The notes under the pieces are model-generated. The model was not told the origin of the DNA. It searched no databases and worked only from the letters and a program-made list of their open reading frames with translations. Both the position numbers and the translations under genes were made by a program. A stretch of DNA of 64,000 bases from a virus: positions 1-64,000 of the IMG/VR virus record IMGVR_UViG_3300020463_003399; one strand, 5' to 3'. Shown piece after piece: positions 1,035 to 52,201 of this stretch. Numbering within the stretch: the first letter of the stretch is position 1; the number at the start of each line of letters is the position of its first letter.

Positions 1035-1208
1035 ATGGATAAAAACGAAAAGAAAAAACTAGAAAAAGCCGAACTAGAAAAACAGATACAAAAGTATCTT
1101 AAAAAAGGTGGCAAAGTAGATTATTGTCCTGAAGGTGCAATCACAGATGAAGGACAAATGAATTATAAGTTTCGTAGGAATAAAAAATCCCCAAAATCAA
1201 GTGGTTAA
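1035..1208 (+). CDS. 57-aa SutA-like (RNA polymerase-binding domain-like) protein, not in ORF track
   Basis: RBS GAGG; MDKNEKKKLEKAELEKQIQKYLKKGGKVDYCPEG...; the LExQIxxYLxKGGKV motif resembles the SutA RNAP-binding domain. Confidence 0.55.
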   Translation: MDKNEKKKLEKAELEKQIQKYLKKGGKVDYCPEGAITDEGQMNYKFRRNKKSPKSSG

Positions 1209-1253
1209 CTTAACAACGTTGTTAAGTATCTTTAAATTTCCATAAATATTAGT

Positions 1254-1481
1254 ATGAAAATACTAATGGTAATAATATTCGTCCTATCAAATGGAAAAGA
1301 AATATATCCAACGCAAGAAGGTTGGAGACCTACAGTTATGGATTCTTTGGAAGCATGTGAAATAAGAAAAGCGGCCGCTAAAGAATATATAGATTGGTCT
1401 TTTGAAACTGGAAACATGCCTAGCTATTATGCAGGATATAAAATTCTTTGTGAAGTTACCGGAGGAGATAAAGATGATTAA
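1254..1481 (+). CDS. hypothetical protein with hydrophobic N-terminus
   Basis: 75-aa ORF; overlaps the next gene at ATGATTAA. Confidence 0.5.
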   Translation: MKILMVIIFVLSNGKEIYPTQEGWRPTVMDSLEACEIRKAAAKEYIDWSFETGNMPSYYAGYKILCEVTGGDKDD

Positions 1482-1602
1482 ATGGCATAGAAAACAAACT
1501 GAATACTGGCAAAAGAAATTTAATGTAGACGCATATGGTCTTGCATGGATTGCCTGGGCTAAAGGTCTTGTAATGGGTTTATTGATTGCTTGGTTTATTT
1601 AA
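1474..1602 (+). CDS. small membrane protein (42 aa; start revised from 1402)
   Basis: GGAGGAG RBS before ATG 1474; C-terminal TM helix YGLAWIAWAKGLVMGLLIAWFI. Confidence 0.55.
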   Translation: MIKWHRKQTEYWQKKFNVDAYGLAWIAWAKGLVMGLLIAWFI

Positions 1603-2125
1603 CACCATCGATACAATGATATTCAAATCTTTCAGTATTGTATAACCAAAATTCTTCTGTACTTAAAACTATCCAAGTACCATATTTCTCAGAATTATAT
1701 TTAACATGAATAGGGCTTCTCCAGCCTTTATTCAATAATACTTCTTGAAATGCTACGTAAGTTCCCTTACGACTAAATTTCATAAAAACGATATTCACAT
1801 CATTTTCTTCTGCGATATCCATAGTCTGATTTATCCAACCTTCTAAAAGCGGAATTTTTTTATTGTGTAGAAAATGGTGAAAAGGAAAATCAGCATAATT
1901 TTTGCATTCGCAATTAAAATACTTCCAATTATCAGGAGGTATAATATCTCCTTTAAAACCTCTTACTTGTCCTTCACTTAAATTAGATGCTCTATGGAAA
2001 TTACTTCCACCTATATATGCACCACTATTAGGTACACGTACAAAGCTACCATTATATTTCTCACTTAGGAACTTAGCTAACTCTCTTTCATAGCTACTAC
2101 CTTTTGCTTTACTTTTACTTGGCAT
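1595..2125 (-). CDS. Holliday junction resolvase (Hjc-like PD-(D/E)xK nuclease)
   Basis: KGSSYERE, PNSGA, GDII and ECKN motifs. Confidence 0.75.
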   Translation of the reverse strand: MPSKSKAKGSSYERELAKFLSEKYNGSFVRVPNSGAYIGGSNFHRASNLSEGQVRGFKGDIIPPDNWKYFNCECKNYADFPFHHFLHNKKIPLLEGWINQTMDIAEENDVNIVFMKFSRKGTYVAFQEVLLNKGWRSPIHVKYNSEKYGTWIVLSTEEFWLYNTERFEYHCIDGVK

Positions 2126-2220
2126 AAATTATATCTTCCATTATTAAAGGTCTAAAGACCTAATCCCTTTTAATTCTCAATCGCTTTGCTCTTTCGAATT
2201 AATTCGGTATTTGTTTTATT

Positions 2221-2249
2221 AGTATATATCATTAATGGGTATATGTCAA
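2221..2249 (-). promoter_or_regulatory. sigma70-type promoter for the resolvase gene
   Basis: Minus strand TTGACA (2249-2244), 17 bp, TATACT (2226-2221). Confidence 0.7.
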
Positions 2250-2259
2250 TAGTATTAGT

Positions 2260-2754
2260 CTCTGTCCCGTGAAGAAGCCATAATTGCCCTGTTGCCAGGA
2301 CAATTAAAAAATGGCTGTACAGAAAATCTTGTCTTATCTGTCCCTTGCTCATCGCCTCTATGTCTAAGTTAGTCGCTAGTTACGACGGAGTCGGTTGGCG
2401 ATCCCTCCTTAACTTAGTATTGCATCTTTCGATCCAACGGCACTCTTTATAATCCACATAGATAGAAACTATAAAAAGCAGATAGTGTTATAAAAACCTA
2501 TCATCGGTAATATTATTACTAGTCAACCATGTCCTTCAGAGACCATGGCTGTTTTATGATTATGAATACTCTTTTGTGGTTTACGAGAAGAATGTCAGAA
2601 TTCATCCTGACTAGTCCGACGGCAAATCTTAAATTTGCAATCTCAATCCCGTGTCGGCAACCCGACAAACGATTCCACTATGTATGCTGAGATATTAGTC
2701 ATTCCCTATTCCTATTCACCGAGTTATATATTAGATGTATTAGTCGTATTAGTT
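2260..2754 (-). ncRNA. putative large structured non-coding RNA, family not recognised
   Basis: About 500 nt without a credible gene in a gene-dense genome; many nested helices with G-U pairs on the minus strand, GCAA/GAAA tetraloops and two pseudoknot pairings (see findings). Confidence 0.7.
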
Positions 2755-2990
2755 TTACAATATTGGCATTCCTGCCTTTTTACTCATTTCAAAGTTTTTC
2801 TCAATAATTTTATTGAGATGCTTAATATGAGACACTGGCATATCGTGTAGATCCCGAATCGAAACCCCACCTCTCATATACCAACTTAATTCTAACAAAT
2901 TATAGTGTAGTTTGTCAAGTTCTTTTTCAAACTTTTTTTGTTTTTCTACAATTTCTTCACCGCTGGCGGTTGCTAACCAGCTACGGAAAA
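2755..2990 (-). CDS. -1 frameshift extension of the upstream gene (gp51/tail-chaperone-like C-terminal domain)
   Basis: Open -1 frame FRSWLATASGEEIVEKQKKFEKELDKLHYNLLELSWYMRGGVSIRDLHDMPVSHIKHLNKIIEKNFEMSKKAGMPIL*, with no good start of its own, entered at slippery site A AAT TTT (2994-2988). Confidence 0.75.
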
Positions 2991-3818
2991 ATTTATAGGG
3001 TTCATTTCTAAGCTAATTGTCTCTTTATGACCGCAATCTTCAACTGGACAAACAAAGTTAAACTTGTTTAATTCTGCTGGTTTTCTTGTAATTTTTTCTA
3101 CTGATTTGTTGATATTAGTTACTAAACTTGCAGGTATATTAGCTAGAAATTCATTAATTTGTACTCTATCTGTTATATCTGCCTCTTTAGTACGTATCAT
3201 AGAAACTGTTTCAGATAATAAATCTACATTTTGTCTAGCAACACGTTCAAAACTTGAATAAAAACGTTTGGCAAGTTCTAACTCATCAGCATCATCTTTA
3301 CTTTGTGTTTTGATGTTATTAACAATTCTTTGTTCTTCTAGCTGAATGAGAGCAACCCGTGTTACACTCTCTAAACTCGGTGGTTTAACATGTATCTCTA
3401 AATCTTCATACATTATAGGTTCTACAACATCTATATCTGGAAATTTGTTCAACAAAAAGTTAATGTCAATGTTAAAATCGCTTTGATTATCACATTTAGT
3501 ACATTTGTGTGTATGTGTGACTTCTTTTCCATATGTAGCATAGCTGATAGCTAAAAATAATGCCTCAGCATCAATGTTGCATAAGTTTCTTGGGTTCGGT
3601 ATTGATGGACAACAACTTTTAAACAAACTAATCATAGCTTCACCGTTTAATAGTGAGTCAGGGTTTCTTAAAGTTATTTCATCAATAGCCGTCATAGGCA
3701 TAACGCCTATTTCATCAATAATAGTTTGGTCTATTTCAGGATTAAATCTTCCTTTAGTAGGCAAACTTACATAAATTGCCGGCTTTCTAAAATACTTAGT
3801 TAGCGGATTCTCGTTCAT
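2973..3818 (-). CDS. baseplate hub/tail assembly chaperone (T4 gp26-like)
   Basis: NPL..YFRKPAIYVSLP N-terminus, MTAIDEI, two Cys pairs (CTKC, CPVEDC), C-terminal NF; divergent from the tape-measure-like gene. Confidence 0.7.
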   Translation of the reverse strand: MNENPLTKYFRKPAIYVSLPTKGRFNPEIDQTIIDEIGVMPMTAIDEITLRNPDSLLNGEAMISLFKSCCPSIPNPRNLCNIDAEALFLAISYATYGKEVTHTHKCTKCDNQSDFNIDINFLLNKFPDIDVVEPIMYEDLEIHVKPPSLESVTRVALIQLEEQRIVNNIKTQSKDDADELELAKRFYSSFERVARQNVDLLSETVSMIRTKEADITDRVQINEFLANIPASLVTNINKSVEKITRKPAELNKFNFVCPVEDCGHKETISLEMNPINFSVAG

Positions 3819-3835
3819 TATTAATTCCTTGATTT

Positions 3836-3843
3836 GATAAATA
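3836..3843 (+). promoter_or_regulatory. T4-late-like promoter GATAAATA
   Basis: The same octamer precedes most structural genes in the window. Confidence 0.65.
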
Positions 3844-3929
3844 CACTTATATAAATTACTAAGTGGTTATATACGTATATTTAGACATATTATAAACTAC
3901 GAAGTTTAACTTGTCAAGAGAGAAATTTA

Positions 3930-6269
3930 ATGGCTGAAGGCGATGTAACAATAACAGGTTTGAGTCCGAATGTACCACAATGGTCTACGGAACAAACATT
4001 ACTTAAAGTAACGCAGATTTTACAGAAAGAAAATCTACTTACTTCACAGGTTATTAAAAGTATTAATGCCCTGGCGTCAGGTAATGCCGAAACAGTAAAA
4101 GAAGTACGTCAAAATGTACAACAAGCCAGAGAAACCGCTAAAGCAACAAAAGAATTAGAAAAAACCACTGCACAATCAGTACAAGAAGAAAAGAAGTCTT
4201 TTAATATCTTTAGTAATATCTACAAAGGCATAGAAAGACTAGTAAGAGTCGAAGAATTACAAAACACATTACAAGAAAAAAGAACAAAAGCACTTGAAGA
4301 AAAAATATTTCAGGCAACAATGAAATCGGCACCTGATGGCGATGTACAAGCGGCTAGATTAGATGCAAAAATGAAGGCGGCAACACAGGCAACGAAAAAC
4401 TCTGAAACAAATATTCTTAGTGGTGACATTAATCCTAACTTTTTTCAAAAAACTATTAAAGGTATTGCAGGCATGACAGTTGCGGCAGAAGGATTTAATG
4501 CATACTTAGGTCAAAACTTTGAAGATAGATTTAATCTTGCAAACGAAATAAGACAATCTGGTTTATTTGCAGGTTTAGATTCTGCTTCTGCAGGATTAAT
4601 TGGGTTTTCAGAAACAGTTAATGATAGTAACTTTACATTAGGTCAAGCGGCAGAATTTACTGAAAGATTTTCACAAGCAGTTGGTAGAACAGGCGTTGAG
4701 GCGGCAATGAGATTTGTAAACGCCATGGCATATGATAGGCAACTTGAAAATGGAGAAAAAGCATTAGGCTTGATGGAAAGATTTGGTATGGACTTTAGAC
4801 AAGTTAGTATTGTGTCAGGTGAATATCTAGAATCTTTAAGATCCGCAAACGTATTAGGAAAATTGTCACAAGCACAAATGGAAGCAGGCATGGAAGACTT
4901 TATGGATGGGGTTACTGCAACATCTAACGTCTTAAAAATTAGTTTAGAAGATTCTGCAAAGATGATTGCAGATAGATTGAACAGAGATGATATTGCTGGG
5001 TTCATGGCTCTTATGAGTGATGATAAAAAACAACAAACAACGGCGGCATTAGCAGGTGTTGGTCTTGAAGATGGAAGTGTATTAGGTGAGGCAATTATTA
5101 AAAGGATTGCAATGGGTAGTGAAGGATTTTTAGTTTCAGATGACAGAGCCCAACTAATGGAAACAGCCCAAGGTGCAGAAATAGTTAGACTTATTGAACA
5201 AGTAGGTTTAATTGCAGACCAAGGCGGAGACGTAAGTGCGGCGATGAAAACATTTATGTCTGGCGCAGGACAAATGGTTGATGCTAATCAAGGTGATGCT
5301 ACTGCTAAATTACTGATGGCTACTGGACAAGGCAATATAGGAAAAATGTTTACTGAAATTGAAAAATTTTCAGGAACTATTGGTGACATTGACAAAGGAA
5401 TTACACCGTTAGCTGAGGCAGACGTTGCCCAAGTTGCTAAAGACGATATTGCAAGAACGGCCACAGTTGCTATCGAAGGATTGGTAAACACACAAATGCC
5501 AGTCTTTGCAGAAAACTTAAAAGGTATCAATACACAAACTGCTGGTATAATTAACAACTTAGAACAAGTAGGACTTAATCTAGCACCAGCGGCCTCGGTA
5601 GCCGCTAGAACGGCAGGAATAATAACTGAGGCAGGCAGAGGCATTGGAGATGCAATGCTAGACGCCTTAGAATTTATAACATCACCATTAGATAATGCCG
5701 TTACAGGTACTGTAAAAGTAATTGGAGCAGATGATACTAAAACAGGACAAATTATTACTGATACTCAACAAACAGATGAAGAAAAAGATAAAAACATAGC
5801 AACAAAACGACAGACCAAAGATATCACAAAGGGCGAAGAAAGTTTACGTGAAGGTGGTATTGTTAATATGTTGATAGATGGTCAAGCAAAAAATATGTTT
5901 GACGAATTATTTGAAGTTTTATTAAAAGATAAAAATGCTGATATATCAGGAAACGTATCTGAACTATCAGATTTAATGGGATTTGATAGTTTCTTTAAAG
6001 ATGATGCAGAATCTATAAAAGAAAGTCAAGCAGAATTAATGAGAGCAATCGAAGCCATTAAAGAAAAAGACGAATTCAGGGCTGAAGGTGGACAAGAAAA
6101 ACTACAGAAATTATTAGATGCACTAGAAGCCATGCAATCAGAAACATATGAAAAGAGTATGTTCAGAGGTGACGAAGCAACAAAGGCAAGAAACGATGAA
6201 AACGCCACAGAAAAAGACGCTTTAGTTGGAGCAATTAGAGATTTAATAGACTCAATCAAGAGGCAATAA
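3930..6269 (+). CDS. putative tape measure protein
   Basis: 779 aa, Ala/Gly/Gln-rich, appears mostly helical; late promoter; next to the frameshifting chaperone. Confidence 0.5.
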   Translation: MAEGDVTITGLSPNVPQWSTEQTLLKVTQILQKENLLTSQVIKSINALASGNAETVKEVRQNVQQARETAKATKELEKTTAQSVQEEKKSFNIFSNIYKGIERLVRVEELQNTLQEKRTKALEEKIFQATMKSAPDGDVQAARLDAKMKAATQATKNSETNILSGDINPNFFQKTIKGIAGMTVAAEGFNAYLGQNFEDRFNLANEIRQSGLFAGLDSASAGLIGFSETVNDSNFTLGQAAEFTERFSQAVGRTGVEAAMRFVNAMAYDRQLENGEKALGLMERFGMDFRQVSIVSGEYLESLRSANVLGKLSQAQMEAGMEDFMDGVTATSNVLKISLEDSAKMIADRLNRDDIAGFMALMSDDKKQQTTAALAGVGLEDGSVLGEAIIKRIAMGSEGFLVSDDRAQLMETAQGAEIVRLIEQVGLIADQGGDVSAAMKTFMSGAGQMVDANQGDATAKLLMATGQGNIGKMFTEIEKFSGTIGDIDKGITPLAEADVAQVAKDDIARTATVAIEGLVNTQMPVFAENLKGINTQTAGIINNLEQVGLNLAPAASVAARTAGIITEAGRGIGDAMLDALEFITSPLDNAVTGTVKVIGADDTKTGQIITDTQQTDEEKDKNIATKRQTKDITKGEESLREGGIVNMLIDGQAKNMFDELFEVLLKDKNADISGNVSELSDLMGFDSFFKDDAESIKESQAELMRAIEAIKEKDEFRAEGGQEKLQKLLDALEAMQSETYEKSMFRGDEATKARNDENATEKDALVGAIRDLIDSIKRQ

Positions 6270-14372: not shown

Positions 14373-16397
14373 ATGGCGGCATATGCAATTCAGTTCCGTC
14401 GTGGTACAACGACTCAACATTCATCATTCACAGGCTTGTTAGGTGAAGTGACAGTCGATACAGACAAGAAAACACTTGTCGTTCACGATGGTTCTACAAC
14501 AGGCGGCTACCCATTAATGCGTGAAGGTGCGGCATCAACCTCGACAACAGGTTCATTCTCATCAAACGTAACGGTAGGCGGCACATTAGCAGTAACTAAC
14601 ACGGCAACATTAAGTGGCGGTGTAGATGTTACAGGTAACTTGGACATGACAGGTCACATTTTACCATCTGCTAACATTACATATGACTTGGGCTCAACTT
14701 CACTAATGTGGCGTGATATTTACGTAGGTCCTGGATCTTTATACGTTAACGGTAAAAAAGTTATCGAAGATGATTCTGGAACTATCTCAATTTCAACGGA
14801 CGTAGACCAAGCATTAAAAGTAGCAACATCAGGTACAGGTACATTACAGATTGAATCTGCAAACGGTATTCAGTTCACAGGTGAATTGAAAACATCATCA
14901 GGTGATATTCAAATCGGTGACCACATCGATATGAATTCTAACTTGATTAAAGCAGTTTCAAGTCCAGTATCAGGTACAGATGCGGCAAACAAAACTTATG
15001 TTGATAGTGCGATTACTACAGGTATTGGTGCAGGTACGGCGGCAGTTTCAGGTACAACTGGTGCTTTCTCAAGCAACGTAACAGTAGGCGGCGACTTAAC
15101 AGTTAACGGTACAACAACTACAATTAACACATCAGAAATTAATTTAGCTGATAATATCTTACTCTTAAACTCAGACGCAACAGGAAATGCTACGGCATCT
15201 GGTGGTATTGAGATTGAAAGAGGTGATGACCTAAACGTTCAACTATTATGGGACGAAACAAATGACAGATGGTCAGTAGGTGCAGAAGACATCTATTCAT
15301 CAGGTTCATTTATTGGTAATCTAACAGGTAATGTTGTAGGTGATGTTGTCGGTGACGTAACAGGAACAGTTTCAGACGTATCAAATCATACAACGAATGA
15401 TATTGCTGAAGGCGGTTCAAACTTATACTTTACAGATTCACGTGTTAGAAACGCAATCTCAGTATCAGGCGACTTATCTTATAACTCAACAACAGGTGTA
15501 ATTTCTACACAAGGTCTTGCATCATCAGATACAGATGACCTAGCAGAAGGTTCAACTAACCTATATTACACAACTGCACGTTGGGACGCTAAGATGGCTA
15601 CAGCCGATACAGATGATTTATCTGAAGGCTCAACAAACCTTTACTACACAACTGCACGTTGGGATACAAAAATGGCGGCGGCAACTTCTGACGATATGTC
15701 AGAAGGCTCAGCTAATTTATATCACACAACTGCACGTGCAAGAGCGGCAATTTCTGCAAACAGTGATTTAAGCTACGATAGTGCAACTGGTATCATGTCA
15801 TACACGACACCAACAACTATCGCTAGTATCGCCAATCATACATCAGATGATTTAGCAGAAGGTTCTACAAATCTATATCACACATCAGAGCGTGTTGATG
15901 ATAGAGTATCGGCGTTAATGACTGCAGGTACAGGTATCTCATTATCTTATGATGATGCGGCTGGTACTTTAACAGTAACAAACACTCAAACAGAACTTAA
16001 TGACTACGTAGATAGTGCATCATTCTCAGGTGGTACATTAACTCTATCAGTCAGTTCGCAACCAGATGTTTCTGTTTCACTAGACGGACGTTATGTCAAA
16101 CTAGCTGATTCAACTAAGAAACATTCAGATGCTTACGAAGTAACTGCTCAAGACGAAACAGACAATAGTTCAGCTACATTAACTAAAACATGGGCTCAAC
16201 TAACTGCAGGTAAGATTGACATCGGTGGTATTGATTTTGCATCAGAAATCAACGATTCACCTTACGCAGTAGTATACATCAACAGAATGGTCGCAAGACC
16301 AAACGAAGTAACAGTTTCTTCAACTGGCTTAACATTCGCTATAGGCGTTGTAGCAGAAGACGATGAAATTGAAGTTGTATACTTTGACGAAGCATAA
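14373..16397 (+). CDS. fibre protein with Mtd-N-like N-terminus and internal repeats
   Basis: IQFRRGT...GEVTVDTDKKTLVVHDGSTTGG N-terminus; repeated TDDLxEGSxNLY; late promoter at 14292. Confidence 0.7.
   Translation: MAAYAIQFRRGTTTQHSSFTGLLGEVTVDTDKKTLVVHDGSTTGGYPLMREGAASTSTTGSFSSNVTVGGTLAVTNTATLSGGVDVTGNLDMTGHILPSANITYDLGSTSLMWRDIYVGPGSLYVNGKKVIEDDSGTISISTDVDQALKVATSGTGTLQIESANGIQFTGELKTSSGDIQIGDHIDMNSNLIKAVSSPVSGTDAANKTYVDSAITTGIGAGTAAVSGTTGAFSSNVTVGGDLTVNGTTTTINTSEINLADNILLLNSDATGNATASGGIEIERGDDLNVQLLWDETNDRWSVGAEDIYSSGSFIGNLTGNVVGDVVGDVTGTVSDVSNHTTNDIAEGGSNLYFTDSRVRNAISVSGDLSYNSTTGVISTQGLASSDTDDLAEGSTNLYYTTARWDAKMATADTDDLSEGSTNLYYTTARWDTKMAAATSDDMSEGSANLYHTTARARAAISANSDLSYDSATGIMSYTTPTTIASIANHTSDDLAEGSTNLYHTSERVDDRVSALMTAGTGISLSYDDAAGTLTVTNTQTELNDYVDSASFSGGTLTLSVSSQPDVSVSLDGRYVKLADSTKKHSDAYEVTAQDETDNSSATLTKTWAQLTAGKIDIGGIDFASEINDSPYAVVYINRMVARPNEVTVSSTGLTFAIGVVAEDDEIEVVYFDEA
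15531..15737 (+). repeat. 78-nt (26-aa) tandem coding repeat, about 2.7 copies
   Basis: Units begin at 15531, 15609 and 15687: TDDLAEGSTNLYYTTARWDAKMATAD and variants. Confidence 0.85.
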
Positions 16398-37930: not shown

Positions 37931-37963
37931 CAGGCTAATATAAAACTAATACAGGCTAATATA
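37931..37963 (+). repeat. CTAATA repeats in the gp32 leader
   Basis: CTAATA at 37935, 37946 and 37956 (CAGGCTAATA twice), directly before the AGGAG RBS. Confidence 0.7.
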
Positions 37964-37974
37964 GGAGAAATATA

Positions 37975-39000
37975 ATGGCAACTTTAGCAGAAATACGTGC
38001 AAAACTTCTTGCACAAGACTCTAAATCGGCAGACAATGCCAACGCAAATCGTGGGGTAGACGCAATCTATCCTTTCTGGAATATGGATACTGATTCAACA
38101 TCAGTTATTCGTTTTCTCCCAGATGCGGACAACTCAAATACATTTTTCTGGCGTGAACGTCAAATCATTAAGATGCAATTCCCTGGTGTAAAAGGTGGGG
38201 ATACGTCTAAGCCAGTTACTGTACAAGTTCCGTGTGTGGAAATGTGGGGTGACACGTGTCCAGTTCATGCTGAGATACGTCCTTGGTTCAAAGATCCAGC
38301 AATGGAAGACATTGGAAGAAAGTATTGGAAAAAACGTTCATACATCTTTCAAGGTTTTGTTGTAACGGATCCTATGAATGAGGAAACTCCTGAAAATCCA
38401 ATACGTAGATTTGTAATTGGACCTCAAATTTTTAAACTTCTTAAATCTGCTCTTATGGATCCAGATATGGAAAATCTTCCAACTGACTATGATGCAGGTA
38501 CAGATTTTCGTTTAACGAAAACTCAAAAAGGTCAATATGCTGACTACTCAACTTCAAATTGGGCACGTAAAGAACGTTCTCTAAATGAAGAAGAACGTAA
38601 AGCTATTGAAACTCATGGGTTATACGACTTAAACGAGTTCATGCCAAAACGTCCTAGTGATGAAGACTTACGTATCATCATGGAGATGTTTGAATCATCA
38701 GTTGATGGTAACTTGTATGATCCAGAGAAGTTTGGTTCTTATTATAAACCATATGGTTTGGATTTGGGTAATACAAAATCAACTCCAAAAGCAGAGGCAA
38801 CAACGAAAGTTGCTGAAACTACTACTGCTCCAGTTCAAGAAACTGCTCCAGTTCAAGAAACTCCTGCTCCAAAGGCAGAAGTTAAGGCTGAACCAGCAAT
38901 GGCTGAGGCAACAACTGCACCAGCAACTGCTAGTGTAAGTAATGGTAGTACAGACGCCGCTGATATCCTGGCGATGATTAGAAATCGTAAATCTGATTAA
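37975..39000 (+). CDS. gp32: single-stranded DNA-binding protein (gp32-like)
   Basis: IRFLPD, CPV, YWKKRSY, YADYSTS; immediately upstream of uvsX. Confidence 0.85.
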   Translation: MATLAEIRAKLLAQDSKSADNANANRGVDAIYPFWNMDTDSTSVIRFLPDADNSNTFFWRERQIIKMQFPGVKGGDTSKPVTVQVPCVEMWGDTCPVHAEIRPWFKDPAMEDIGRKYWKKRSYIFQGFVVTDPMNEETPENPIRRFVIGPQIFKLLKSALMDPDMENLPTDYDAGTDFRLTKTQKGQYADYSTSNWARKERSLNEEERKAIETHGLYDLNEFMPKRPSDEDLRIIMEMFESSVDGNLYDPEKFGSYYKPYGLDLGNTKSTPKAEATTKVAETTTAPVQETAPVQETPAPKAEVKAEPAMAEATTAPATASVSNGSTDAADILAMIRNRKSD

Positions 39001-52124: not shown

Positions 52125-52201
52125 GGACCCGTAACTCAGCTGGATAGAGTGCTTGTCTACGAAACAAGATGTCGGGAGTTCGAATCTCTCCGGGTCCGCC
52201 A
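52125..52201 (+). tRNA. tRNA-Arg (anticodon ACG)
   Basis: Acceptor GGACCCG/CGGGTCC-G-CCA, D arm CTCAGCTGGATAGAG, anticodon arm CTTGT-CTACGAA-ACAAG, T loop GTTCGAATC. Confidence 0.95.

What the first reader, a model, noticed from the sequence alone, without database searches (positions are those of the whole stretch)
2260..2754. Large, pseudoknotted, unrecognised structured RNA between the tail chaperone and resolvase genes
Seen: this is the longest gap in the window that lacks a credible gene, and on the minus strand it folds almost end to end. Helices (+ coordinates): TGTCGG/CCGACA hairpin (2652-2667) inside ATCTCAG/TTGAGAT; GCAAAT/ATTTGC; 8-bp ACTAGTCA/TGACTAGT (2608-2615 with 2518-2525) closing a multi-hairpin domain; a ~13-bp G-U-rich stem (~2442-2479); ATC-GAAA-GAT; CTAAGTTA/TAACTTAG (2410-2417 with 2364-2371) closing GGAG/CTCC and GTCG/CGAC; an 11-bp stem with GCAA tetraloop (2281-2306) extended by AGCCA/TGGCT. 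The 13 nt immediately 3' of the CTAAGTTA helix (ACATAGA-GGCGAT, 2363-2351) are complementary to two different upstream loops, TCTATGT (2462-2456) and ATCGCC (2402-2397), giving two adjacent pseudoknots. G-U pairs and GNRA loops read correctly only on the minus strand, which argues for RNA-level function. A possible promoter (TTGACA 2918-2913, 18 bp, TAGAAT 2894-2889) lies in the upstream coding frame, and the resolvase promoter bounds the 3' end. I do not see the hallmarks of tmRNA, RNase P or group I/II introns. Inference: a large phage ncRNA, comparable in complexity to ROOL/GOLLD-class RNAs and possibly a ribozyme or scaffold; alternatively a transcribed replication-origin primer element.
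Basis: partly seen in the sequence, partly recalled or inferred. Interest (0 to 1): 0.92.

Follow-up and report, generated by a model that had tools for sequence, protein, structure and literature searches.

The report
New knotted RNA of marine giant phages
The gene-free stretch is a real gene for a roughly 435-base, intricately folded RNA with at least two knots; no RNA catalogue lists it, uncultured marine giant phages keep it and ocean RNA samples contain it, and its job is still unknown.

Summary
Window 2260-2700, minus strand, encodes a real structured non-coding RNA. It matches none of the 4,227 Rfam families and is not a tRNA or tmRNA. I found about 100 IMG/VR loci and 97 marine metagenome loci, giving 104 distinct full-length sequences. 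On 43 aligned sequences, 94% of cells pair, against 35-43% when partners are slid. 43 of 107 pairs show compensatory double changes, and 0 of 500 shuffles reach this. Fourteen helices and two pseudoknots are supported. His second stays unproven. Two of his helices, including the 8-bp ACTAGTCA/TGACTAGT, are not conserved; that segment forms a different, covarying pseudoknot instead. One metatranscriptome holds a 438-base contig spanning 2264-2698. No member turned up in bacterial genomes or GenBank phages. New here: the next gene is almost always a small nuclease, but its family (PDDEXK_15 or SegE-like GIY-YIG) switched at least three times. The RNA leader carries CUAAUA boxes; in a complete 342-kb relative, tandem boxes occur elsewhere only in the gp32 leader. 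Function is inferred: a trans-acting folded RNA tied to gp32-type control. This scan found the same family earlier on three other genomes (e1-5692630, e1-5771475, e1-5771478).

The parts
2264..2698 (-). Core of the structured RNA (about 435 nt); the conserved block is 2260-2700
   Evidence: The core is 70-72% identical in loci whose neighbouring gp26 protein is only 56% identical. Covariation supports the fold. A 438-nt metatranscriptome contig spans exactly 2264-2698.
2729..2752 (-). Three CUAAUA boxes at 9-nt spacing in the RNA leader, directly after the stop of the extension ORF
   Evidence: Relatives carry 4-6 boxes at this place.
2693..2698 (-). Last CUAAUA box, about 15 nt before P1; four of its six positions (AAUA) are invariant across the 43 aligned sequences, and the metatranscriptome contig starts here
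2889..2918 (-). Candidate sigma-70 promoter for the RNA (TTGACA, 18 nt, TAGAAT, with TG), inside the extension ORF
   Evidence: A TTGACA plus TAAAAT pair sits at the same codons in G002. The main clade instead has TTGACA-N17-TAGTAT just after the ORF stop.
2675..2682 (-). 5' strands of P1 (CAU, 2680-2682; tentative; pairs with 2279-2281) and P2 (GUGG, 2675-2678; pairs with CCAC 2576-2579)
   Evidence: P2 is invariant. P1 shows only one-sided changes that keep pairing.
2652..2667 (-). P3 hairpin
   Evidence: 4 of 6 pairs show double changes; 100% paired.
2584..2651 (-). P4 (CGGGA/UCUCG) enclosing hairpins P5 (2618-2642) and P6 (2594-2611)
   Evidence: P4 is invariant. P5 has 6 pairs and P6 has 3 pairs with double changes.
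2524..2551 (-). P7 hairpin
   Evidence: 5 of 8 pairs show double changes.
2518..2522 (-). 5' strand of pseudoknot PK-B (CUAGU); pairs with the P13 loop ACUAG at 2376-2380
   Evidence: Variants CCAGU/ACUGG, CCAGAGA/UUUCUGG and CUGGU/GCCAG.
2481..2502 (-). P8 hairpin
   Evidence: 3 of 5 pairs show double changes.
2442..2479 (-). P9 hairpin; its loop (2456-2462, UCUAUGU) is the 5' strand of pseudoknot PK-A
   Evidence: 7 of 10 stem pairs show double changes. PK-A variants are listed.
2419..2438 (-). P10 hairpin with a GAAA loop
   Evidence: 2 pairs show double changes; 100% paired.
2364..2417 (-). P11 three-way junction enclosing P12 (2387-2408) and P13 (2372-2386)
   Evidence: P12 has 2 of 4 and P13 has 3 of 4 pairs with double changes. 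P11 is mostly invariant.
2351..2363 (-). 3' tail: ACAUAGA (2357-2363) is the 3' strand of PK-A; GGCGAU (2351-2356) is the 3' strand of tentative PK-C, pairing with the P12 loop at 2397-2402
   Evidence: PK-A is proven. PK-C has 4 invariant pairs and no double change.
2279..2305 (-). P14 hairpin (2282-2305, GCAA loop in this clade) and the 3' strand of P1 (2279-2281)
   Evidence: 90% paired, 2 pairs with double changes.
2221..2249 (-). Promoter-like site for the downstream nuclease gene; it bounds the RNA on its 3' side
1595..2125 (-). Neighbouring gene, not part of the RNA: PDDEXK_15 endonuclease. Other clades carry a SegE-like GIY-YIG endonuclease at this position.
37935..37961 (+). Related feature elsewhere in the window: three CUAAUA boxes in the leader of the gp32 gene (37975-39000)
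   Evidence: The same arrangement occurs in G001 and G002.

Best explanation
Shown: window 2260-2700 (minus strand) is a gene for a compactly folded non-coding RNA of about 435 nt, belonging to a family with no catalogued relative. The fold has a 5' domain (P2 enclosing P3 and P4[P5, P6]), a middle set of hairpins (P7-P10) and a 3' three-way junction (P11[P12, P13]). Two covariation-proven pseudoknots tie these together. PK-A joins the P9 loop to the strand just 3' of P11. PK-B joins the segment after P7 to the P13 loop. P14 and a short P1 bring the two ends together. Uncultured marine giant phages related to T4 keep the RNA.

Inferred (about 0.6 as a whole): it is transcribed by the host sigma-70 polymerase from a promoter just upstream. 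It is probably trimmed near the last CUAAUA box to a stable species of about 435 nt. It acts in trans as a folded RNA, either as a protein-binding scaffold or as a catalyst, rather than by base-pairing to a target.

More speculative (about 0.3): its leader carries the same CUAAUA boxes as the phage's gp32 mRNA leader. The same RNA-binding factor, most simply gp32 itself as in the T4 gene 32 operator, would then bind both. That would couple the RNA's level or maturation to the pool of free single-strand-DNA-binding protein, or let the RNA compete with the gp32 mRNA for that factor.

The biochemical job of the folded core is not known.
For: - No ORF in the gap. No Rfam match at gathering threshold or at E up to 10. 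No tRNA or tmRNA.
- Only the minus strand folds better than shuffles.
- The core is 70-72% identical where the neighbouring gp26 protein is 56% identical.
- RNAalifold: 23 of 84 pairs have compensatory changes.
- My structure on 43 sequences: 94.4% of cells paired against 35-43% when slid, 43 of 107 pairs with double changes, 0 of 500 shuffles as high. Invariant G-U pairs fit only this strand.
- Pseudoknot variants: PK-A has UCUAUGU/ACAUAGA, CUGUGU/ACACAG, UCUGUUU/AAACAGA and UUCAUGU/ACAUGGA. PK-B has CUAGU/ACUAG, CCAGU/ACUGG, CCAGAGA/UUUCUGG and CUGGU/GCCAG.
- Six metatranscriptome runs hold 36-43% of the stretch's sampled words. In one of them a 438-nt contig equals 2264-2698. In the other three laid, contigs pile on 2249-2844.
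- Promoter: 2918-2889. The main clade has a conserved TTGACA-N17-TAGTAT between the ORF stop and the RNA.
- Boxes: in the complete 342-kb genome G001, tandem CUAAUA boxes occur only at the RNA leader and the gp32 leader. G002's RNA leader has six boxes and its gp32 leader has two. The gp32 assignment is PF08804 above cut-off.
- In L220 the RNA is intact, with a fresh compensatory change, in a different gene context. This argues that it works on its own.
Against: - Assembled contigs cannot show strand, true ends or level, and DNA carry-over in RNA libraries is possible (the tool's own caveats).
- In run X15, contigs bridge the RNA's 3' part and the nuclease gene, so read-through or co-transcription is not excluded.
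- There is no intrinsic terminator after P14.
- The CUAAUA link to gp32 rests on shared motifs only. CTAATA is not enriched overall in the window (67 seen, 79 expected), and no binding was tested.
- No target, ligand, protein partner or cleavage site is known.
- Effective sequence diversity is modest: five clades, and the model built from them had an effective sequence number of 1.27.
Confidence: 0.6

Rival explanations
1. The RNA is a cis-acting giant leader of the downstream nuclease gene. It would control the nuclease's transcription, translation or mRNA stability, in the manner of a riboswitch.
For: A small nuclease gene follows in the same orientation in 153 of 154 loci with enough downstream sequence. 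A palindromic hairpin (2148-2161) before the ribosome-binding site is kept in front of both nuclease families. Contigs in run X15 bridge the RNA's 3' part and the nuclease ORF.
Against: An 11-of-12 promoter lies between the RNA and the nuclease (2249-2221). A 438-nt contig ends at 2264, about 140 nt before the nuclease start. In L009 and L010 a radical-SAM gene is inserted between the two. In L220 the RNA is intact without either nuclease. The nuclease family switched at least three times while the RNA stayed the same. The size, three domains and two or three pseudoknots far exceed known leaders.
Confidence: 0.15
2. The RNA is a self-splicing or otherwise mobile ribozyme (similar to a group I intron) that travels with a homing endonuclease. 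Alternatively, the RNA gene is simply the conserved landing site of free-standing homing endonucleases.
For: GIY-YIG and PD-(D/E)XK are both families used by homing endonucleases (established knowledge). The two alternate at this one site, with at least three switches on the RNA tree. The RNA is very conserved, as homing targets tend to be.
Against: No group I or group II Rfam match even at E up to 10. The covariation-derived topology lacks the P3/P7 pseudoknot around P4-P6 and P8. There are no exons: the upstream ORF ends in a stop, and the main clade has a promoter between it and the RNA. No joint skips 2260-2700 in four RNA runs. The RNA is present in every relative with enough flank rather than sporadically. 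Each nuclease is single-copy in complete genomes. The landing-site version explains the neighbour, not what the RNA does.
Confidence: 0.06
3. The stretch is a replication-origin element. Its transcript would prime DNA synthesis, as with ColE1 RNA II or the R-loop at T4 oriF/oriG.
For: A promoter-driven, structured, non-coding transcript lies near recombination and repair genes. The boxes shared with the gp32 leader could be read as single-strand-binding sites.
Against: The GC-skew turns at about 1600 and 3900 simply follow gene orientation. The covarying helices, the invariant G-U pairs and the two long-range pseudoknots point to selection on a compact RNA fold, beyond what an R-loop primer needs. 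No AT-rich unwinding element or iteron array lies downstream of the fold. A discrete contig of about 438 nt fits a stable RNA.
Confidence: 0.05
4. There is no functional RNA: the stretch is a decayed gene, a chance fold, or conserved DNA-level signals only.
For: None beyond the lack of a known function.
Against: 43 pairs show double compensatory changes. 94% of cells pair against about 38% when slid. 0 of 500 shuffles reach this. There is no conserved ORF. The stretch is present in RNA libraries.
Confidence: 0.01

Closest known systems
GOLLD (RF01998) and ROOL (RF03087), large 'ornate' RNAs often carried by phages and prophages (cryo-EM in PMC12286853)
   Same: Several hundred nucleotides long, many helices, several pseudoknots, phage-borne, own transcription unit, function unknown.
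   Different: No match to either covariance model. This RNA is smaller (about 435 nt against about 580 and 800). The helix plan is different. It occurs in marine T4-related giant phages at one fixed locus. Homo-oligomer formation, the defining structural finding for those RNAs, could not be tested here.
T4 gene 32 translational operator (a structured element next to an unstructured run of short A/U-rich repeats, bound cooperatively by gp32; established knowledge)
   Same: The phage's own gp32 leader has a hairpin followed by three CUAAUA boxes up to the ribosome-binding site. The RNA leader carries 4-6 copies of the same box next to a large fold.
   Different: In the RNA the boxes lie 5' of the structure and no translated gene follows them. 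Binding by gp32 is not shown. The box sequence differs from T4's UUAAA/UAAA repeats.
Group I introns of T-even phages with GIY-YIG homing endonucleases (td/I-TevI)
   Same: A conserved structured phage RNA of a few hundred nucleotides, next to a small GIY-YIG or PD-(D/E)XK nuclease gene.
   Different: No model match, a different pseudoknot topology, no exons, no spliced joints, and presence in all relatives.
Candidate structured RNAs of IMG/VR (PMC10690425)
   Same: Same data source (IMG/VR intergenic regions) and same kind of evidence (covariation).
   Different: That catalogue holds motifs of 29-151 nt only, so it could contain fragments of this RNA at most. I could not check its supplementary alignments against this RNA.

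Membership tests
Any Rfam 15 family (4,227 models) | Covariance-model score at or above the family's gathering threshold | tested here: not met
   Whole window: only a tRNA at 52125. Region 2000-3100 at E up to 10: three chance-level hits, none inside 2260-2754.
Group I intron | Match to the group I covariance models | tested here: not met
   No hit at E up to 10.
Group I intron | Core topology: P3 and P7 form a pseudoknot around P4-P6 and P8 | tested here: not met
   The covariation-derived plan is P2[P3, P4[P5, P6]], P7-P10, P11[P12, P13]. Its pseudoknots run from loop to tail and from junction to loop.
Group I intron | Flanking exons that join into one gene; spliced product present | tested here: not met
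   The upstream ORF ends in a stop, and the main clade has a promoter before the RNA. No joint skips the RNA in four RNA runs.
tmRNA | tRNA-like domain plus a tag reading frame | tested here: not met
   ARAGORN finds no tmRNA in the window. No Rfam tmRNA hit.
RNase P RNA | Match to the RNase P models with their conserved regions and P4 long-range helix | tested here: not met
   No Rfam hit.
GOLLD / ROOL | Match to RF01998 or RF03087 | tested here: not met
GOLLD / ROOL | RNA-only homo-oligomeric assembly | not testable with these tools
   Needs cryo-EM or native sizing. Covariation cannot tell contacts within one molecule from contacts between molecules.
gp32-type translational operator | Run of short unstructured repeats beside a structured element in the gp32 mRNA leader | tested here: met
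   Met for the gp32 leaders: window 37935-37961, G001 and G002. The RNA leader shares the boxes.
gp32-type translational operator | Cooperative binding by gp32 with repression of a downstream start codon | not testable with these tools
   No start codon follows the boxes in the RNA leader. Binding needs a bench test.
Cis-regulatory leader or riboswitch of the nuclease gene | Continuous with the regulated mRNA and always followed by the same gene | tested here: inconclusive
   For: a nuclease follows in 153 of 154 loci, and X15 contigs bridge the two. Against: a promoter lies between them, a radical-SAM gene is inserted in L009/L010, the nuclease family switches, and L220 lacks the nuclease.

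The most novel reading that the evidence does not exclude
The fold is a new catalytic or self-assembling RNA of marine giant phages. It could be a ribozyme, an RNA-only multimer in which PK-A or PK-B are contacts between copies, or an RNA cofactor that gives target choice to the domain-only nuclease encoded next to it. The third option would explain why two unrelated minimal nucleases, neither with a DNA-binding domain, can replace each other behind the same RNA.
Probability: 0.15. Interest if true: 0.95.

Novelty: categorically new. Interest (0 to 1): 0.8.

Why it matters
Large, highly structured RNAs with no known job are rare, and past examples turned out to be ribozymes, RNP cores or RNA-only cages. 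This one has many sequences to work with (104 distinct full-length versions). It has a well-supported fold with two proven long-range knots. Assemblies of ocean RNA libraries contain it. It sits in abundant but uncultured marine giant phages. Two leads make it testable: a motif shared with the control region of the phage's single-strand-DNA-binding protein gene, and a neighbouring slot in which two unrelated minimal nucleases alternate. At about 435 nt it is small enough for in vitro transcription, chemical probing and cryo-EM without needing the host.

Tried and rejected
- **Rfam.** At gathering and permissive thresholds: nothing in the element.
- **ARAGORN.** No tmRNA.
- **GenBank phages.** blastn of 2130-2972 gave no match.
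- **Cultured relatives.** The closest by gp26 are Agrobacterium phage Atu_ph07 and Sinorhizobium phage Phosso, at 32% amino-acid identity. nhmmer with the family profile found nothing in the syntenic regions. A covariance model of the 3' domain (R1) found nothing in either whole genome.
- **Bacterial and archaeal genomes.** A 23-base pattern scan of one genome per species gave one hit, which is a chance match. In the metagenome scan, 13 of 110 hits were one unrelated GC-rich coding sequence.
- **Loose pattern.** GTGCCGTTG...GCAATAC gave mostly chance matches.
- **L030 and L059.** These were chance matches and were dropped.
- **Antisense targets.** I searched the window for complements of the conserved single-stranded segments. 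Only 8-10-mers at chance level turned up.
- **GC skew as an origin signal.** It follows gene orientation only.
- **CTAATA as a general promoter motif.** It is not enriched overall (67 seen, 79 expected). Only the tandem clusters stand out.
- **Ranking expression by contig depth.** Not valid according to the tool. I use only the contig extents.
- **Parts of the window without RNA contigs.** Not used as evidence.
- **Literature.** Full-text searches for large phage RNAs found no description of this family.

Full report
**What is in the window.** Between 2125 and 2755 there is no credible ORF. The flanks, all on the minus strand, are these:
- A T4 gp26-like baseplate hub gene at 2973-3818 (PF12322; phrog_150).
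- A 47-aa continuation ORF at 2755-2898.
- A PDDEXK_15 endonuclease gene at 1595-2125 (PF24608).

The record is an 89.6-kb IMG/VR fragment. By gp26, its nearest cultured relatives are the giant phages Atu_ph07 and Phosso, at 32% identity. The window also has a T4-type portal gene and a gp32 gene.

**Is the fold more than chance?**
- Alone, the minus strand folds to -128 kcal/mol (z = -2.69; none of 100 shuffles as good). The plus strand gives z = -0.78. That is suggestive only.
- Homologues are decisive. Nineteen IMG/VR loci found through gp26 all carry the same gap. Its core (window about 2357-2699) is 70-72% identical in DNA where gp26 itself is only 56% identical in protein.
- Pattern scans and a profile search raised this to about 100 IMG/VR loci and 97 marine metagenome loci. 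Together they give 104 distinct full-length sequences in five clades.
- RNAalifold on 34 sequences predicted 84 pairs, 23 with compensatory changes.
- I then wrote a structure by hand and counted it on 43 sequences. 94.4% of cells pair, against 35-43% when every 3' partner is slid by 1-3 columns. 43 of 107 pairs have changes on both sides. None of 500 shuffles reaches any of the five measures.
- Invariant G-U pairs (P4, P10) read as pairs only on the minus strand.

**The fold** (coordinates in the parts list).
- A short P1 and P14 bring the ends together.
- P2 encloses P3 and P4, and P4 encloses P5 and P6.
- Hairpins P7, P8, P9 and P10 follow.
- P11 closes a three-way junction with P12 and P13.
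It pairs the P9 loop with the seven bases right after P11. It covaries cleanly: UCUAUGU/ACAUAGA, CUGUGU/ACACAG, UCUGUUU/AAACAGA and UUCAUGU/ACAUGGA.
It pairs the segment after P7 with the P13 loop: CUAGU/ACUAG, CCAGU/ACUGG, CCAGAGA/UUUCUGG and, in L220, CUGGU/GCCAG.
His ATCTCAG/TTGAGAT is also clade-specific.
- PK-C, his second pseudoknot, would stack on PK-A, but it has only four invariant pairs and no compensatory change. It remains possible.

**Is it an RNA in nature?**
- Twenty public runs from 15 studies hold the stretch, all marine. Six are metatranscriptomes holding 36-43% of its sampled words.
- I laid four of these on 1200-4400. One run has a single 438-nt contig covering exactly 2264-2698. 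The other three have contigs piled on 2249-2844.
- Contigs cannot give strand, ends or level, so this is a hint of a discrete, stable species rather than proof.
- Two runs have contigs that run from the upstream ORF into the RNA. This fits the promoter-like site at 2918-2889 (11 of 12, with TG).
- The main clade has a conserved TTGACA-N17-TAGTAT directly after the ORF stop.
- In run X15, contigs bridge the RNA's 3' part and the nuclease gene, so some read-through is possible.

**What it is not.**
- It matches no Rfam family, even at E up to 10, and it is not a tmRNA.
- For group I introns the model, the topology, the exons and the spliced joints all fail.
- It is absent from 50,697 GenBank phage records by blastn.
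- It is absent from one genome per prokaryote species by a 23-base pattern.
- A covariance model of the 3' domain finds nothing in Phosso or Atu_ph07.
- The published IMG/VR catalogue of structured RNAs stops at 151 nt (PMC10690425).

**Leads to function.**

First lead, the CUAAUA boxes:
- The RNA leader carries CUAAUA boxes: three at 2729-2752 and one at 2693-2698. Relatives have 4-6.
- In the complete 342-kb relative G001, tandem boxes occur at only two places, the RNA leader and the gp32 leader.
- The window's gp32 leader has three boxes between a hairpin and the ribosome-binding site. G002's has two.
- This layout recalls the T4 gene 32 operator. I infer a shared RNA-binding factor, possibly gp32. 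This is inference only.

Second lead, the neighbouring nuclease:
- The next gene is a domain-only nuclease in 153 of 154 loci. It is PDDEXK_15 in some and a SegE-like GIY-YIG in others.
- The family changes at least three times on the RNA tree, even among near-identical RNAs such as L092/L099 against L094/L096.
- Each nuclease is single-copy in the two near-complete genomes.
- The hairpin in front of the nuclease start is kept across the swap.
- This could mean replacement of one enzyme by an unrelated equivalent, alternating homing endonucleases beside a conserved target, or a working partnership with the RNA.
- Against an obligatory partnership: L009 and L010 have a radical-SAM gene in between. 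L220 has an intact, still-covarying RNA in a different context without either nuclease.

**Verdict.**
This is a new family of large, knotted phage RNA.
- I put above 0.9 on 'real structured RNA gene', about 0.6 on 'independent trans-acting folded RNA', and about 0.3 on the gp32 link.
- The same family was reported earlier in this scan from three other genomes, with the same overall reading. My tests were made independently on this window.
- This report adds the repeated nuclease switching, the out-of-context copy L220, the genome-wide exclusivity of the tandem boxes, and the negative searches in Phosso, Atu_ph07 and prokaryote genomes.

Noticed in passing
window 1595-2125 (-); L012:5768-6205, L092:5352-5792, L099:7423-7863, L147:1544-1981: The gene after the RNA is PDDEXK_15 in the window clade, L094 and L096. 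It is a 145-146-aa SegE-like GIY-YIG nuclease in the main clade, L147, L092 and L099. The family switches at least three times on the RNA tree. Each nuclease is single-copy in the near-complete genomes G001 and G002.
   Followed up: yes
window 37935-37961 (+); G001:226353-226368; G002 near 237745-237830: Tandem CUAAUA boxes lie between a hairpin and the ribosome-binding site of the gp32 gene. In the complete 342-kb genome G001 the only other tandem cluster is the RNA leader. In G002 the gp32 leader (GGCUAAUAUCUAUC...ACAUAG) also resembles the RNA's own 5' end.
   Followed up: partly
window 2148-2161: A palindromic hairpin, AGGTCT-TTAG-ACCT, lies just before the nuclease ribosome-binding site. 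It is conserved in front of both nuclease families. The scan also reads it as terminator-like on the plus strand.
   Followed up: partly
window 2755-2996 (-); L012:4837-5058; L211:3834-4064: The ORF that continues gp26 ends at the same relative place in all relatives. In several of them (for example L012) an ORF with its own start codon begins 4 nt before the gp26 stop. Phosso annotates it as a separate overlapping gene.
   Followed up: partly
L211:5233-6246 (Sinorhizobium phage Phosso, PV764938.1 229759-230772): Phosso has a 1-kb unannotated, hairpin-rich gap directly upstream of its resolvase gene, the same position as the RNA here. There is no detectable homology to this RNA. It gives a sub-threshold hit to the EGFOA RNA (RF02955; 29 bits against a gathering score of 37.7) on the opposite strand.
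   Followed up: partly
L009:4921-6129 and L010: A 402-aa radical-SAM gene is inserted between the RNA and the GIY-YIG nuclease gene in one subclade.
   Followed up: no
L220:7531-7949: An intact copy of the RNA sits behind an 1800-aa ORF of no known family. Neither gp26 nor either nuclease lies nearby. A weak His-Me endonuclease-like ORF lies 1.3 kb downstream.
   Followed up: partly
window 14373-16397 (+): A 674-aa protein starts with an Mtd_N domain (major tropism determinant N-terminus, PF18454). This may hint at a diversity-generating retroelement target or a tail fibre.
   Followed up: no
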